Positions 6,765 to 63,212 of a DNA stretch of 64,000 bases are shown here, piece by piece. The translations under genes were made by a program, and so were the position numbers. The notes below the pieces were generated by a model, which worked only from the letters and a program-made list of their open reading frames with translations, searched no databases and was not told where the DNA came from. The stretch is from contig CM068745.1 of the NCBI GenBank assembly GCA_035084275.1, positions 7,440,001-7,504,000 on the forward strand, read 5' to 3'. This DNA is from Hydrolagus colliei (lineage: Eukaryota). Within the stretch, counting starts at the first letter, position 1. Each line of letters begins with the position of its first letter.

Positions 6765-7249
6765 GTTCCTACTTACTGCTAGGTAAACAGAGGTGTGTGG
6801 AGTAAGGAAACTTGCCCAACATTTTGTCCTGCCGGGAATCAAAGCCGGGTAATTCGCTTGTGAGGCGAGTGCTCTAACCATTGAGGTACAGAACTCGATA
6901 AACATCTTCACACAGGTAACATATTTTGAAAGTGGAATGGTGATAGGAACACACATTCTTTGACTGAATTTACAAACCTATCATTGAACACACACTTTGA
7001 GGGAATATTCCAGCTGTTTCTCGACATAGATATTTTTCTTAGCATTTTGGAATGCATATGTTTTTCACTATTAGTAAATTTCAATCTTAATTTTTAAGAT
7101 TGGAGCCTTGACTGAACTCAAAATTCCAATGTGAGACTTGAACTTTTTGCCTTCTCCCTCCAAGGCAAGAGTGTTTCCACGTAATCAAGACTGTTGCCTC
7201 ACAGGTTTACCCAACAGCCTAACCAGTTTGAGAACTCCTTTGTGTGCAG
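6765..7249 (+). repeat. Direct segmental duplicate, copy A (SINE head plus apparently unique flank)
   Basis: Collinear with 22586-23112, including non-SINE sequence such as GAACTCGATAAACATCTTCACAC...GGAACACACATTCTTTGACTGAATTTACAAACCT. Confidence 0.92.
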
Positions 7250-7412
7250 GTTCCTACTTACTGCTAGGTAAACAGAGGTGTGTGGAGTAAGTAAACTTGC
7301 TGAATACACTAGCAAAACACAAAATACTACAGATGCTGGGAATCTGAAACAAAAACAAAAGTTGCTGGGGAAACTCAGCAGGTCAGGCAGCATCCATGGA
7401 GAAAGGAAAAAG

Positions 7413-14500: not shown

Positions 14501-15010
14501 GACACTGGCATTTTCTTTAAGTTCAACTAAATGTATGTTTTTGGACTTACAAATAATAGTGATTTTAGCCAATTGATTTGGGGCTCCTAACATGTGATAT
14601 ATTAGCCAAATGTAGGCAAACAGCACAGTGACTAAAGACGATAATAATTTTTGTGTTTGCTAGAGTGCCTTATCATGTCTTCAGATGTATCAAGGCACTT
14701 CACGGAATAAGCTGCAAAGTGGATTGACTGTGTATTTTGTGGGCGAGATTTATCTGATTTATCTGCATTGAACTCGCTGGTTCACAGCTTGTAACATTGG
14801 ACATCCAGTTACTGAGACTGAATTATTTTTTTAAGTTAAGCTATTGTAAAGGTCGCTAGAAAGAGACTTCACCCAATACAGGTGTGTGGATTATAATTTT
14901 TTTATTATCATATACAATTTAAATGTTAATGTCTTAACACATACAATTATTGGATAGTTTTGTTACATTAACAACAATAACAACAAAATTACACCTATAG
15001 AGCACTCTTT

Positions 15011-15645
15011 ATCATAAGACCATAAGAATTAGGAGCAGGAGTAGGCCATTTGGCCCTTCGAGCCTGTCCCGCCATTCAATAAGATCATGGCTGATCTTCT
15101 GACCTAACTCTAATTACCTACCCCATCCCCATATCCCCTAATCCCTCTATTTTTAAAAAAATCTATCAGTCTCAGCCTTGAAAATGTTCAGGGACTGAGC
15201 ATCCACAGCCTTCTGGGGTAGTGAATTCCATAAATTGAGTGAAGACATGTTTCCTCAACTCCATTCTAAAAGGACCATTAATTTTAAGACTGTGATTAAT
15301 TTTAAGACGGTTATAGATTCTCCTACCAGGGGAAACAGTCCCTCAATATCTACTTTATCCAGCCCTTTAAGAATCTTATATGTTTCAATAAGATCCCCCC
15401 TAATTCTTCTGTACTCTAGAGAGTACAGCCCTAGTTTATTCAACCTATCCTCATAGGTCAGTCCCTTCATCCCAGGAACTAACCTAGTGAATCTATGCTG
15501 CACCCGCTCTAAGGCAAGTATGTCCTTTTTTAAATAAGGAGACCAAAACTGCACACAATACTCTAGGGGCAGTCTCACCAAAGCCCTATATAGTTGCAGC
15601 AGGACTTCCCTACTCTTGTACTCTAAACCTTTTGAAATGAACACT
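15011..15645 (-). mobile_element. CR1 LINE 3' fragment
   Basis: ORF 15255..15839 has [20 protein letters not shown]...[10 protein letters not shown]...[11 protein letters not shown]; tail CTTATGGTCTTATGAT. Confidence 0.92.
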
Positions 15646-16001
15646 AATACCAATAATACCAATCCTTGCAGTTGATATGGCTCCTTATCACGTCTTTGAG
15701 ACATCTCAAAATGTTTCACAGGATATGCAGTCAAGTGTAGTGACTGTACATTAAATAGAACAATTAAAAATGTAAATAAATAATAATGAGGAATAAAACA
15801 GTACACAGTGTCACACAGCAAATATTTAACTATCAGCACAGATTAATAGTTTTGCTGATACTCTTGTATCGACAAACAACTGACCTCCAATATATAGGCG
15901 AATAAGTGATCATATACATAACACAGTTACAATTAAATTTTTCTAAACGGGAAATAAATATTTCTCTTTGTGATTACTTTACCTGAAGCTTGTTATCACA
16001 G
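15011..16001 (-). repeat. ~1-kb inverted duplicate, copy A (CR1 3' end, SINE tail, apparently unique DNA)
   Basis: Reverse complement of 59893-60906 along its whole length, including the non-CR1 part. Confidence 0.93.
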
Positions 16002-17317
16002 ATTCAATGAAACCGATGTTACCCGATTCCAATGGGGAAGTCGCTGATGACCAGCTGCCTCACATTTGTTCCTCATATAAAGATTCCTTTTTTTACCCCA
16101 AAGCCACATCTTTCTTTCAAGTGTTTCTTACCCCCAATTTAGCCCATGTGACCTTTAAAATCAATCATGGAATTCAAAGATTATTATTTGGTCCAATCAA
16201 ATCCTTATCCACAAGGTTCCCTGTGGACTATCTCGGTTTAATCTAAGGAATGTGAGAGTTCAAATGTGTGAAAAGTTTGATTCAACCATCAATTATCCTT
16301 CCTTGACACCTTCATGTCGTAATGATCTTTCAAAATCTCATCCAAGCAGACTAGAGCTCTTTAAGCACTCTGAGATGCCGTCTGGCGTGGAGGGCGCTGT
16401 ATAAATCGATGTTGTTGTAGAAGGAACCAAGAGTTCCAATTAATCAGGACAACGTCAGGTTAACTTGAAGCCACACATTTCTGATCACATGAATGTTGAC
16501 ATTTGGATCTTCTTCATTGATCGTGGAATTTTTGTATCAGCACAATGTCAATTTTATTGACCTGAGATAAGACTGTTAGGTACCATCCGTCCAAATATGG
16601 AAAGGAACAACACCTATTCATCAAATCTTCATCAACACAATCACAGAACTCACTCCATTTGGTTCAAATTTTCTCTTACATCCCATAAAACCATTTAAGA
16701 TTGCTCCAGTTCTTATACACACCCTGGACATCAAACAATGACTTCCACCATATTCTTACACCATTGCTTCATTCATCAAGTCTTCAATGTTGTCCGTCAA
16801 CCATCACTTCAGTGCACATTGCTAGTTCACAGCCAACTCATTGTCACATTATTACATTACTGAAGTGGGGGAAAGCTTGTTAATTCCCCCAATTCCCATC
16901 CAATTTACACCGTTGGCTATTGATTACCTAACTGTGCAGTTACACATTTGTAAGCCATTTCTCTTCATGTGATCCAATAAGTATTTTGAACAGATTGAGT
17001 AAATTTCAGGAGAGGTTTGTGAATAACCTTGACCGCTAATGGAATAAAGGAAACAAGGAGTACGTTCTTTGGTGTTCCCATTGAGCCGAGTTGTCAACCA
17101 TGTCAGGAAAATCTTTGTGTAAGATTTTGTTAGGCATTTACTAGCCAGAGGATGGCAGAATTGTTGTTGCATAAATTACCATACAATATTACTAGTGAAT
17201 GCTACTGCAGAAATTTATGTTGTTATAATCTTTGAAGCAAACCAGCTAACTCTCCAAAAACAGCATTTGGTATCCATATCTCTTTCTTCTTGAAGCTTTT
17301 TTTTAAAATTTATGTTA

Positions 17318-22585: not shown

Positions 22586-23112
22586 GTTGCTGCTTATTGC
22601 TAGATAAACAGAGGTGTGTGGAGTAAGGAAACTTGCCTGATATTTTGTCCTGCCGGGAATCAAAGCCAGGTCATTCACTTGCAAGGCGAGTGCTCTAACC
22701 ACTGAGGTACAGAACTCGATAAACATCTTCACACATGTAACATATTTTGAAAGTGGAATGGTGATAGGAACACACATTCTTTGACTGAATTTACAAACCT
22801 CTCATTGAACACACACTTTGAGGAAATATTCTACCTGTTTCTAGACATAGATATTTTTCTTAGCATTTTGGAATGCATATATTTTTCACTATTAGTAAAT
22901 TTCAATCTTAATTTTTAACCTGCTTTCAAAGAACCTGAACTAGAGTATGAGCCTTGACTGAACTCAAAATTCCAATGTGAGACTTGAACCTATAGCCTTC
23001 TCCCTCCGAGGCAAGAATGTTTCCATGTAATCAAGGCTGTTGCCTCACTATCGAGATTAGAGAGCAGGTTTATCCAATAGCCTAACCATCTTGAGAACTC
23101 ATTTGTGTGCAG
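22586..23112 (+). repeat. Direct segmental duplicate, copy B (probable donor)
   Basis: Collinear with 6765-7249 and contains two short segments absent from copy A. Confidence 0.92.
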
Positions 23113-23810: not shown

Positions 23811-23933
23811 ACATCACAAATAAAATCCTTACACCTAGCCACTGACAAAAATAGAAATCCTTCAAAATGTTAAGAGTGTTTCACTGCTCCACTGTGTGTA
23901 AGAGAGATGACAACCAACCTGAAAACACAGCAA
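23811..23933 (+). repeat. 123-bp inverted repeat, left arm
   Basis: Reverse complement of 24527-24649 with one mismatch seen. Confidence 0.95.
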
Positions 23934-24526: not shown

Positions 24527-24649
24527 TTGCTGTGTTTTCAGGTTGGTTGTCATCTCTCTTACACACAGTGGAGCAGAGAAACACTCTTAACATTTTGAAG
24601 GATTTCTATTTTTGTCAGTGGCTAGGTGTAAGGATTTTATTTGTGATGT
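24527..24649 (-). repeat. 123-bp inverted repeat, right arm (inserted copy)
   Basis: Flanked by direct repeat GTTCATTTGAA at 24511-24521 and 24648-24658. Confidence 0.95.
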
Positions 24650-24658
24650 TCATTTGAA

Positions 24659-25007
24659 GGAGCTCCTGTGGCTCAGTGGTTAGAGCACTTGTCTTGCAAG
24701 CTGGGGAGACCAAGCTGGGGAGACCTGTGTTCGAATCCAGGCAGGTCAGGGCGAAACCTTGGGCAAGTTTCCTTACTCCACACGCCTAATAATAATCCCT
24801 CCAAAAAAAAACACAATAATAAAATTGGTCATTTCAATCCACGACTGTGTGTGGGACACTGCTGTGCGCAATTGGCTGCCGCGATTCACCCACAAATATA
24901 TACAGTCAATTCACTTTACAGTATATTCTGTGAAGCGCTTTGGGACGTTGATAAGATGTGGAAAGCGCTATATCACATGCAAGGATTATTATTATTATTA
25001 TTATTAT
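24659..25007 (+). mobile_element. tRNA-derived SINE, full length
   Basis: GGAGCTCCTGTGGCTCAGTGG...GTTCGAATCC...(ATT)n. Confidence 0.92.
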
Positions 25008-59892: not shown

Positions 59893-60906
59893 CTGTGATA
59901 ACAAGCTTCAGGTAAAGTAATCACAAAGAGAAATATATATTTCCTGTTGAGAAAAATGCAATTGTAACTGTGTTATGCACATATACAGGATCACTTATTT
60001 GCCTATATAGTGGAGGTCAGTTGTTTGTCGATACAGGAGTATCAGCAAAACTATTAATCTGTGCTGAGAGTTAACTATTTGCTGTGTAACACTGTGTACT
60101 GGTGATGTTTTATTCCTCATTCTTATTTATTTACATTTTTAATTGTTCTATTTAATGTACAGTCACTACACTTTACCACATATCCTGTGAAACATTTTGA
60201 GATGTCTCAAAGATGTGATAAGGAGCCATATTAAATGTAAGGATTGGTATTATTGGTATCTGCGTTCATTTCAAAAGGTTTAGAATACAAGAGTAGGGAA
60301 GTCTTGCTGCAACTGTATAGGGCTTTGGTGAGACCGCACCTAGAGTATTGTGTGCAGTTTTGGTCTCCTTATTTAAAAAAAGGACATACTTGCCTTAGAG
60401 GGGGTGCAGCGTAGATTCACTAGGTTAGTTCCTGGGATGAGGGGGCTGACCTATGAGGATAGATTGAATAAACTAGGGCTGTACTCTCTAGAGTACAGAA
60501 GAATTAGGGGGGATCTTATTGAAACATATAAGATTCTTAAAGGGCTGGATAAAGTAGATATTGAGGGACTGTTTCCCCTGGTAGGAGAACCTATAACCAG
60601 GGTCACAGTCTTAAAATTAATGGTCAGCCTTTTAGAACGGAGTTGAGGAAACATTTCTTCACTCTGAGGGTAGTGAATTTATGGAATTCACTACCCCAGA
60701 AGGCTGTGGATGCTCAGTCCCTTAACATGTTCAAGGCTGAGACTGATAAAAAAAAAAAAAATTAAATGGAGGGATTAGTGGATATGGGGGATATGGCAGG
60801 TAATTAGAGTTAGGTCAGAAGAAATGCCATGATCTTATTGAATGGCGGGGCAGGCTCGAAGGGCCGAATGGCCTACTCCTGCTCCTAATTCTTATGGTCT
60901 TATGAT
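59893..60906 (+). repeat. ~1-kb inverted duplicate, copy B
   Basis: Reverse complement of 15011-16001. Confidence 0.93.
60261..60906 (+). mobile_element. CR1 LINE 3' fragment
   Basis: ORF 60404..60646 has [11 protein letters not shown]...[11 protein letters not shown]; same 5' truncation point as the 15011-15645 copy. Confidence 0.92.
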
Positions 60907-63212
60907 TATCAGTACCTGTTTTAACAGAGCACCATGCAATTCAGTATTGTAATGCAGTAAAGTTGATGTTGTTGCTATGGTTTCCATTGGTAACCTACAC
61001 AGAGGGTTCATAGTTACAGCAATTTCCGTTACTCTCCGCATATGAAATTTTAATTGCATTAATTCCAATGGTGAAGAAATTCCTTTCTGCTCACAAGGTT
61101 GATTTGACTGAAGAAGACCCTTCAGTCCATCTGTTGTCATCCTTCCTACCTCCCTTCCATGTTTCCATCATAGCATCAAGGAATGTTTCCCCAAATGCGT
61201 TCCAATATCCCAGCCTTAATCATCTTCCTGTCAACTTCAGTATTTCTGTTTAAATCAACTTTGGGAGAGGCAGTTTGGATAGAAATATTTTCCCCTAGAC
61301 ATTCTTTCTCTTTTTAAAGAATTGTCCGCAGCTCATGTTAATTCTTATATCATTCCCTTGGAGACAATCTGACAACCCATCAAAATTATATGTACTTCTG
61401 CACTCCGTCTGATGAGACAGGAGGAAGTTTGAACACTTTAAGTGCTCTGGTACGTCACCCCACATTGAAGGGTGTGATACAAATGCATGTTGTCACATTA
61501 AAGTGCTGTAACATGAATGCAATACTTTGAATTAAAGGAACACTCTATATATGGAGATCTAAATCACTTATACAAAATCATCGAGCTGTTTATCTTTTCG
61601 AAGATGAATGAGACATTAAATGAATATCGACGTTAATTGAAAAATTATTTAATTTAATATCAACCTGCATGTGCCGTTCTCAAATCCATTCCTTTGCACT
61701 GGCTGCCATCATTTATAATAATAATCCTTGCATTTGCTGTAGAGCTTTTCACGTCCTGTAGCTGTCTCAAAGCGTCTTCACAGAATATTCTTATACCATA
61801 TTACAGAATGTGGCATCTCACATGAGTCTTACAGCAGCAGATTTGAATGAATCCAGACTTTTACAGAAAAACAGAAAATATACGTGTCTATGCGGTTCTA
61901 ATATCAACAACAACGACAAAATTACATTCATAGAGCGCCTTTCACGTCGGGAGGATGTCAAGCTTGATGCGTGTAAATCTGCAAATGAAAGCTCTTTGAC
62001 AGTCACTGGATGAGTGACATGAGTAAGGTTCAAAAGGTCATCAAAGTTTCTTCTGACATAGTACAGTTCTGTACTTGACAAGATTCAGTTCCCCTTGTGC
62101 AGTGCATGCTTGATGAAGTAATGGTACACACACTATGGACCAGAGGCATTAAGCAGTAACCATAATGAACTGGAAAATGAGCATTATTGCTGAGGTGCTG
62201 TGGTTTAGATTAGGTTTAAACGCTCAACCTCACCTTTATTTTCAGACCGAATCTGGCCTGCATTATTCAGTAATGCAGAACTTCTCATTCATTATTGCTT
62301 AAATGTAATTTCCATAGAGAAACTGTCAAGGAGAAGATTTAATTACAGTTGAATGGGTTGGTCTGAAAGGTTATCTAAATTGCATGTTATTTGCCAGCTT
62401 TGCCATCAACCTTGCTATTTCCCTCTTTATCTTTGCCTTACATGCATGAGAGTGCTGGTCCCTTGTGCACAGCTAATTAATTCATACCAGGGTGAGAAAA
62501 ACACAAGCATTTTTGAATTATTGACTAAAGGAATAAGGAAAATAAGGTTCGGCTTTAAAGGCTTTTAGCCCTTCAATCACCAGTTGCCGCAGCTTGTCAG
62601 AAACAATAGTGCTACTTCTGTTAATTGTTCTCTTGTGAATACTGTACCACTATGAATGCTGTTTTGCAGGTCTATTAGATGCTTAAAAGAGTTGACTCAC
62701 ATGGGGCTTGACATTCTGAGTTCTGGCTTTTGTCTGGCACAAAAAAATCAACATTAATCTGTTACAAAGTGTGGAGGCTTTGCCTCTTCTCTCCTTTTCT
62801 CTGACCTGCTCATTATCTTTCGTACTGGTGTTGCATTGCAGTTAAAAGACGTAATTACAGTGATTATATGCACCGCACAATGAGGAAGGAGCCATTTGCG
62901 GACAAGCACCTAAGCAATGCTGTCAGCCCTTTGTCAAGTTTAAGCACTAACAAGACACAAGCCATTCTAGCACCAGGGAATAAATGTTGCTGGGAATTCT
63001 GCCAAAGTAGAAATGCAGCTGAGATTTTCACTCTCAGCTGGATCTTACCTCTACATTTCCAGCCTAAGACTGAACCTTCTTTACAAATAAAAATTAAGGT
63101 TAACCCAGAATATTGAAGATGAAAGGATCTTGAGCTGGGTATTATTGAAGGAAAACAAGTTATAGAACTTTGTGATTGATTTTTTTTAATACAGAAGGTT
63201 ATTGGGACATGA

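What the first reader, a model, noticed from the sequence alone, without database searches (positions are those of the whole stretch)
15011..16001. 1-kb inverted duplication ending exactly at a CR1 3' tail: candidate 5' transduction
Seen: 15011-16001 is the reverse complement of 59893-60906, 44 kb away. The unit is ~260 bp of apparently unique DNA, a SINE tail and a 5'-truncated CR1 with the same truncation point. Homology stops precisely at the CR1 terminal CTTATGGTCTTATGAT. Copy B keeps a degenerate TSD-like match around the CR1 alone (ATTATTGGTATC / ATTATCAGTACC), suggesting it is the donor; copy A cuts an L2 tail. Established: CR1/L2-group RTs recognise their own 3' tail. Inference: a read-through (e.g. 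intronic) RNA containing a dead CR1 was re-mobilised with its upstream flank, a route to sequence shuffling or the birth of a composite non-autonomous element.
Basis: partly seen in the sequence, partly recalled or inferred. Interest (0 to 1): 0.7.

Follow-up and report, generated by a model that had tools for sequence, protein, structure and literature searches.

The report
Nearby DNA patched into a break
A 1-kb piece ending in a jumping-gene tail was copied once, back to front, into an older repeat 44 kb away, where about 36 bases were lost; it is most likely a DNA-break repair patch of a known kind, though copying from the host gene's RNA by the jumping gene's enzyme remains possible.

Summary
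The pair is real: A (15011-16001, minus strand) and B (59893-60906) differ at about 5% of sites, and the flank has only these two matches in the genome, so there is no composite family. A is the acceptor. It interrupts an older LTR-like repeat that runs through the site in 25 of 29 paralogs; 35-37 bp are lost, there is no TSD, and both joints show 1-2 bp microhomology. Copying followed the CR1 insertion closely: three variants are private to A and B, against about 18 per copy afterwards. Classical 5' transduction fits poorly: no short TSD, long target loss, donor 44 kb away in a 1-Gb genome. Local two-copy duplications are common here (29 within 100 kb against 7.5 expected). Best reading (0.65): DNA-templated break repair from B, possibly begun by a new CR1 insertion, as in a published human L1 case. 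The RNA route stays open (0.27): homology stops at the tail, and B is probably sense in a teneurin pre-mRNA. No second tail-stopped case turned up in 1.66 Mb or in 11 close CR1 groups. The scan's notes hold no look-alike of this stretch. Low interest.

The parts
15011..16001 (-). Copy A, the acceptor: whole inserted unit, 991 bp
   Evidence: interrupts a host repeat
15011..15645 (-). 5'-truncated CR1 3' end in copy A; limits approximate at the 5' side
   Evidence: shares three private variants with B
15653..15751 (-). SINE 3' tail in copy A
15752..16001 (-). Two-copy flank in copy A
14842..15010 (-). 3' part of the older LTR-like host repeat, with the remainder of an L2-like tail stub
   Evidence: 25 of 29 paralogs match this side as well as the other; ends in TTACA
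16000..16760 (-). 5' part of the host repeat (starts TGTAA; a separate small L2-like insert at about 16356-16419)
   Evidence: 131 candidates in the genome, 40 scored
59893..60906 (+). Copy B, the donor, 1014 bp
   Evidence: contigs of another organism cover its 5' boundary and bridge its 3' junction
59893..60150 (+). Two-copy flank in B
60155..60253 (+). SINE 3' tail in B
60262..60906 (+). 5'-truncated CR1 in B, G-type tail subfamily
60248..60918 (+). Span bounded by the weak TSD-like match around the CR1 of B (about 60248-60261 and 60905-60918)
   Evidence: 11 of 14; 15 of 420 shuffled pairings score as high

Best explanation
Copy A is a one-off local copy of locus B that replaced 35-37 bp of an older repeat 44 kb away, most likely made when a broken DNA end at A invaded B, copied about 1 kb of its DNA and was rejoined through 1-2 bp of microhomology. 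Shown: two copies only, A is the acceptor, target loss without TSD, short microhomology at both joints, and A's flank and CR1 derive from B at least as far as 60621. Inferred: the break, the strand invasion and a DNA template. Two sub-cases cannot be separated here. (a) Plain repair (SDSA, MMBIR or alt-EJ type) that copied the whole unit and happened to stop at the repeat tail, about 0.37. (b) A new CR1 insertion began at A, its short cDNA (under ~285 nt) paired with the near-identical CR1 at B and was extended through B's truncation point into the flank, about 0.28. These splits are my estimates.
For: The flank has 2 matches of 2 candidates. The host repeat is continuous across A's site in 25 of 29 paralogs. 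The spacer missing at A measures 37, 34 and 38 bp in 9, 2 and 2 of the 13 paralogs (of 29) where the pattern could measure it, and a contig of run X6 shows 36 letters there. CR1/L2 insertions usually give 3-5 bp TSDs, and truncations over 20 bp are uncommon in repair-proficient cells but frequent without Ku70 (PMC4245944, passages). In 1.664 Mb around the window, 29 of 86 two-copy pairs lie within 100 kb against 7.5 expected, 18 of them within 10 kb, in both orientations, so local DNA copying is active in this genome. Of 11 close CR1-tail groups on another contig, 2 share flanks and both run at least 600 bp through the tail. Human precedent for sub-case (b): a chimeric L1 whose 5' part and non-L1 5' flank came from an L1PA5 about 230 kb away, ascribed to retrotransposition plus SDSA (PMC8087252, passages). 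The last 283 bp of the CR1 hold no variant private to A and B, as (b) allows.
Against: A random end falls within 2 bp of a CR1 tail with probability about 1e-4, so sub-case (a) needs a coincidence. For (b), A's exact end is shared with B and is rare: 13 other places in the genome, against 362 other G-type tails and about 4,250 family tails, i.e. 0.3-4% for an independent 3' end. A and B also agree at the subfamily-diagnostic sites of the last 283 bp apart from noisy columns near indels. B's CR1 is probably sense to host transcription, as the RNA route needs. The excess of pairs at 10-100 kb alone is small (11 against about 7). The cited human chimeric L1 kept a 119-bp TSD; A has none.
Confidence: 0.65

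Rival explanations
1. Local RNA templating. CR1 reverse transcriptase bound the internal CR1 tail in a nascent host pre-mRNA, primed on a break or nick 44 kb upstream in the same transcription unit, and copied 1 kb before 5' truncation.
For: Explains the tail-exact end and the identical terminus without coincidence. A teneurin gene lies on the + strand with its first Ten_N exon 473 kb downstream. T-over-A skew is about 0 in the first 385 kb of the fetched region, then +0.030, and +0.038 in the window, consistent with + strand transcription through B. The CR1 subfamily was probably still active when copying happened. LINEs with SINE partners are held to recognise their own 3' end (PMC3747384, passages). 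Transcription-coupled templated insertions at breaks are reported in human cells (bioRxiv 2022.09.30.509517, abstract and section 5).
Against: No TSD and a long target loss. Tethered local use of pre-mRNA by a CR1 enzyme was not found in my searches. No second tail-stopped, flank-sharing pair among the other 28 local pairs or 11 close CR1 groups, although these samples are small. Transcription through B is inferred from skew only. Sense orientation has a prior of one half.
Confidence: 0.27
2. Classical 5' transduction by ordinary TPRT at a random genomic site, or the start of a composite non-autonomous family.
For: The structure is flank, then truncated LINE, then tail, with an apparent 5' truncation at 59893.
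Against: Only two copies. Landing within 50 kb of the source in a 1.003-Gb genome has a chance of about 1e-4. No TSD around the unit. The DNA search scores only best candidates, so diverged extra copies are not strictly excluded.
Confidence: 0.04
3. A larger DNA duplication later trimmed by a deletion at the tail, or later gene conversion between A and B.
For: Larger inverted duplications that pass through CR1 tails exist in this genome.
Against: The host repeat resumes on both sides of A with only 35-37 bp missing, which leaves no trace of a longer insert. Divergence is similar along the unit (3.4-8.1% by part).
Confidence: 0.03
4. Assembly artefact: one locus represented twice.
For: No listed contig piece spans the whole of either laid stretch.
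Against: The copies differ at about 5% of sites with several indels. Contigs from two studies of organism A and one of organism B run from the host repeat about 30 letters into A, just under the tool's 31-letter bridging rule. Contigs of organisms B and C bridge B's 3' junction.
Confidence: 0.01

Closest known systems
Chimeric LINE insertion by TPRT plus SDSA (human L1HS/L1PA5 insertion in CDKL5, PMC8087252, passages seen; it cites Gilbert et al. 2005, which was not held)
   Same: The 3' end is a LINE tail; the 5' part and non-LINE 5' flank are copied from a resident LINE nearby on the same chromosome (230 kb there, 44 kb here).
   Different: There the two LINE sources are distinguishable and a TSD is kept. 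Here the element is CR1, no switch point can be shown, and the target lost 35-37 bp.
Templated insertions at double-strand breaks (bioRxiv 2022.09.30.509517, abstract and section 5; MMBIR and alt-EJ papers seen only in the listing)
   Same: An insert copied from another locus sits in a small deletion, closed by end joining; donors are often in contact range and transcribed.
   Different: Those inserts are somatic, in cell lines, median 120 bp. Their '100 kb' is distance to an induced break, not to the acceptor. Nothing there predicts a stop at a LINE tail.
5' transduction of SVA elements (SVA_F1; PMC3287187, passages)
   Same: Upstream host sequence is joined to a retroelement and found at a second site.
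   Different: SVA copies are dispersed, flanked by 4-20 bp TSDs, and formed a subfamily of at least 84 members. Here there is one local copy without TSD.
SINEs that borrow a CR1 or L2 3' tail (PMC3747384, passages)
   Same: A non-LINE 5' part carries a LINE tail that the enzyme could recognise.
   Different: Those are multi-copy families with their own promoter. This unit has two copies and no sign of further spread.

Membership tests
5' transduction by TPRT | 3' end of the new copy coincides with the element's 3' tail | tested here: met
   Homology ends 2 bp after the CTTATG repeat
5' transduction by TPRT | TSD of the clade's length (3-5 bp for CR1/L2) around the whole unit | tested here: not met
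   35-37 bp of target lost, no duplication; expected pattern from PMC4245944
5' transduction by TPRT | Insertion site independent of the source position | tested here: not met
   44 kb apart in a 1.003-Gb genome
5' transduction by TPRT | Source is transcribed in the element's sense from upstream | tested here: inconclusive
   Teneurin exons on + strand downstream and positive T-over-A skew; no transcript seen
5' transduction by TPRT | RNA processing marks such as a removed intron | tested here: inconclusive
   A and B are colinear with only small indels; an unspliced intronic RNA would look the same
Composite non-autonomous retroposon family | Many dispersed copies of flank plus tail | tested here: not met
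   2 matches of 2 candidates; private-variant pattern in 2 places only
Templated insertion by break repair | Donor intact elsewhere, acceptor identifiable | tested here: met
   A interrupts the host repeat; B continuous in organism B contigs
Templated insertion by break repair | Small deletion at the acceptor with short microhomology and no TSD | tested here: met
   35-37 bp lost; 2 bp at the 5' joint, 1-2 bp at the 3' joint; microhomology this short is also common by chance
Templated insertion by break repair | Donor close to acceptor, with similar events in the genome | tested here: met
   29 of 86 two-copy pairs within 100 kb against 7.5 expected
Templated insertion by break repair | Template was DNA, not RNA | not testable with these tools
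   No sequence mark separates them for an unspliced template
Chimeric LINE (TPRT plus SDSA) | Switch point: 3' part from another source copy, 5' part from the nearby donor | tested here: inconclusive
   Private shared variants at 60559, 60561, 60621 and none beyond; same subfamily haplotype and same rare terminus in the last 283 bp

The most novel reading that the evidence does not exclude
CR1 reverse transcriptase can grab its own tail inside a nascent host pre-mRNA and copy upstream intronic sequence into a chromosome break within the same transcription unit, giving local RNA-templated duplications in a genome with a stringent-type LINE.
Probability: 0.25. Interest if true: 0.55.

Novelty: new member of a known kind. 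Interest (0 to 1): 0.24.

Why it matters
As a repair patch it is one of many local duplications in this genome and has no evident function. It is useful as a clean case with a known donor, a readable acceptor site and a relative date. It also warns that 'flank plus LINE ending at the tail' does not by itself prove 5' transduction. If the RNA route were right and recurrent, CR1-type enzymes would be able to shuffle host intronic sequence locally, and a genome-wide census of tail-stopped twins would test this directly.

Tried and rejected
Composite family: rejected. TSD at B as proof of donor status: weak, 15 of 420 shuffled pairings score as high; donor status rests instead. Recurrence of tail-stopped twins: 2 of 29 local pairs end at a tail, this one and a plain pair of young LINE copies; about 0.5 are expected within 15 bp of any retroelement tail, so there is no excess, and power is low. 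Close CR1-tail pairs on contig C1: 0 of 11 groups stop at the tail. Empty orthologous sites: joints skipping A in runs X5 and X6 are read as paralogs of the host repeat (sides of 25 and 54 letters); no empty site at B among the 15 joints shown, 82 more not shown. No RNA holder listed. Exon search: 291 of 721 candidate ORFs scanned against Pfam (290 top-scoring plus the CR1 ORF of copy A); one teneurin exon and two mobile-element domains found (GIY-YIG below its cut-off), none in the window. The CpG-island scan found no bin passing my thresholds, so the transcription start is not located. Literature searches for CR1 5' transduction or CR1 copying of nascent RNA found no relevant paper (PMC13343379 has 0 hits for 'transduction'); subscription papers are mostly not searched. 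Ichiyanagi 2007/2008, Gilbert 2005 and Damert 2009 were not held. Scan notes: none near this place or by sequence.

Full report
Observation. The window holds an inverted pair, A = 15011-16001 (minus strand, 991 bp) and B = 59893-60906 (plus strand, 1014 bp), 89.7% identical by BLAST including gaps and about 5% different per aligned site. Each unit is about 260 bp of flank, about 100 bp of SINE tail and a 5'-truncated CR1 with the same truncation point. The flank has two matches in the 1.003-Gb genome. The CR1 family has 5,008 candidates. Homology stops two bases after the family's CTTATG repeat. Earlier AI notes call the genome a chimaera; I did not test this.

Reality of both copies. Divergence and indels rule out a simple assembly double. 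Contigs from runs X1 and X5 (organism A, two studies, 0 differences) and X6 (organism B, 6 differences) run from the host sequence about 30 letters into A, just under the tool's 31-letter bridging rule. X6 and X10 bridge B's 3' junction. X6 differs from the window at 50 of about 1,570 bases in six listed pieces (about 3%), less than A differs from B, so the event probably predates that split.

Direction. The sequence on both sides of A belongs to one older dispersed repeat (131 candidates, 40 scored). It spans 14842-16760 and has LTR-like TGTAA/TTACA ends. In 25 of 29 paralogs both sides are present in one locus. The segment missing at A measures 37 bp in 9, 34 in 2 and 38 in 2 of the 13 paralogs where it could be measured; an X6 contig shows 36 letters. 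So A is the acceptor, it lost 35-37 bp, and it has no TSD. The 5' joint has 2 bp of microhomology and the 3' joint 1-2 bp. That stub has a CpG next to the 3' joint that has decayed to CA in some paralogs (L055, L067, L069), so the final 'AT' of A may be target-derived. The TSD-like match at B (11 of 14) is the best of 21 copies but is reached by 15 of 420 shuffled pairings; it is also longer than the 3-5 bp peak reported for CR1/L2 (PMC4245944).

Timing and source of the CR1 in A. Against 29 family copies, A and B share 7 non-majority sites in 622 columns and have about 18 each of their own, some of them alignment noise. Three shared sites (60559, 60561, 60621) are private: a pattern spanning them matches only A and B in the genome. 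The other four are subfamily polymorphisms. So copying came soon after the CR1 landed at B, and A derives from B at least to 60621. For the last 283 bp there is no private shared variant. The exact terminus occurs at 13 other places, against 362 other G-type tails and about 4,250 family tails. An independent 3' end is therefore disfavoured (0.3-4%) but not excluded.

Background. In 1.664 Mb around the window there are 86 two-copy pairs; 29 lie within 100 kb against 7.5 expected from dispersed low-copy families, 18 of them within 10 kb and 11 at 10-100 kb. These 29 include one 14-kb near-identical tandem at an N gap, a few repeat pairs and one pair counted in two pieces; none was dropped. Two end at a retroelement tail: this one and a plain pair of young LINE copies. 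Chance per end is 0.009 within 15 bp of any tail and about 1e-4 within 2 bp of a CR1 tail. Among 11 groups of close CR1 tails on contig C1, picked from the listings, two share flanks and both run through the tail. Local DNA copying is thus common here, and tail-stopped copying is not seen to recur, with low power.

Host context. No exon was found in the window. Teneurin (Ten_N) exons lie on the + strand from C6:7,976,777, 473 kb past the window. T-over-A skew in non-repeat DNA is +0.002 in the first 385 kb of the region, +0.030 from there to the window, +0.038 in the window and +0.017 to +0.023 beyond. This suggests, but does not show, that the window lies in a long 5' intron transcribed on the + strand. 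B would then be sense and A antisense.

Mechanism. Each candidate must absorb one unlikely fact. Ordinary TPRT must land within 44 kb (about 1e-4) and make a long target truncation, which was 2 of 30 for ZfL2-1 in HeLa-RC cells and rare in DT40 cells. Plain break repair explains closeness, deletion and microhomology but must stop at the tail by chance. TPRT followed by invasion of the nearby CR1 explains closeness and the tail and has a human precedent (PMC8087252), but needs an independent end to match B's. Local RNA templating explains the tail and the orientation but has no CR1 precedent in my searches. My rough weighing gives DNA-templated copying 0.65 (0.37 plain, 0.28 TPRT-primed), local RNA 0.27, classical transduction 0.04, others 0.04. 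The underlying event rates are estimates, not measurements.

Papers. PMC4245944, PMC8087252, PMC3747384 and PMC3287187: passages only. bioRxiv 2022.09.30.509517: abstract and section 5; its supplements were not seen. PMC13343379: term search only. Gilbert 2005 is known to me through its citation in PMC8087252 and from recall. The labels CR1, L2 and SINE rest on tail motifs and recall; no repeat library was available.

Verdict. A real, single, old local duplication with a clear donor and acceptor. It is a new member of a known kind, with a minority chance of a more interesting RNA-templated origin. Interest 0.24.

Noticed in passing
window 23811-23933 and 24527-24649: A 123-bp inverted duplicate, 99.2% identical, 594 bp apart. 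The second copy ends about 10 bp before the 5' end of a SINE at 24659, like templated filler at a SINE 5' junction.
   Followed up: partly
window 6765-7249 and 22586-23112: Another local two-copy pair (85.6%, 15 kb apart, same orientation) containing a SINE head; its first 51 bp are repeated at 7250-7300.
   Followed up: partly
L235:1211-1793 and L233:1384-1929: Head-to-head CR1 pairs joined at their truncated 5' ends with complete tails facing outward, as if both ends of one break were primed. Two such among the first 100 listed tails on contig C1.
   Followed up: partly
L223:1-1233 and L224:1869-3101: A recent inverted duplication (99.4%) with a 7.5-kb spacer whose inner breakpoint lies inside a CR1 body; outer extent not fetched.
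   Followed up: partly
host repeat of A; L071, L073, L076, L078, L079, L081 versus other paralogs: Some paralogs lack the L2-like tail stub of about 70 bp, so the stub entered one founder of this LTR-like family and spread with it.
   Followed up: partly
window 60001-60245, run X10 record 1: A 387-letter contig of organism C follows the flank and SINE tail to 60245, and its last 143 letters are not in the listed piece. It could be a different junction in that organism; the table was cut.
   Followed up: no
G000:C6:8,046,364-8,075,185: A 14.3-kb tandem duplicate, 99.99% identical, either side of a 200-N gap; probably an assembly overlap.
   Followed up: no
G000:C6:7,976,777-8,114,394: Five Ten_N exons of a teneurin gene on the + strand; skew suggests its transcription unit may start about 850 kb upstream.
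   Followed up: partly
L047:1994-2956: A 321-aa open frame with a weak GIY-YIG match (E 0.0009, below cut-off), possibly a Penelope-like element.
   Followed up: no
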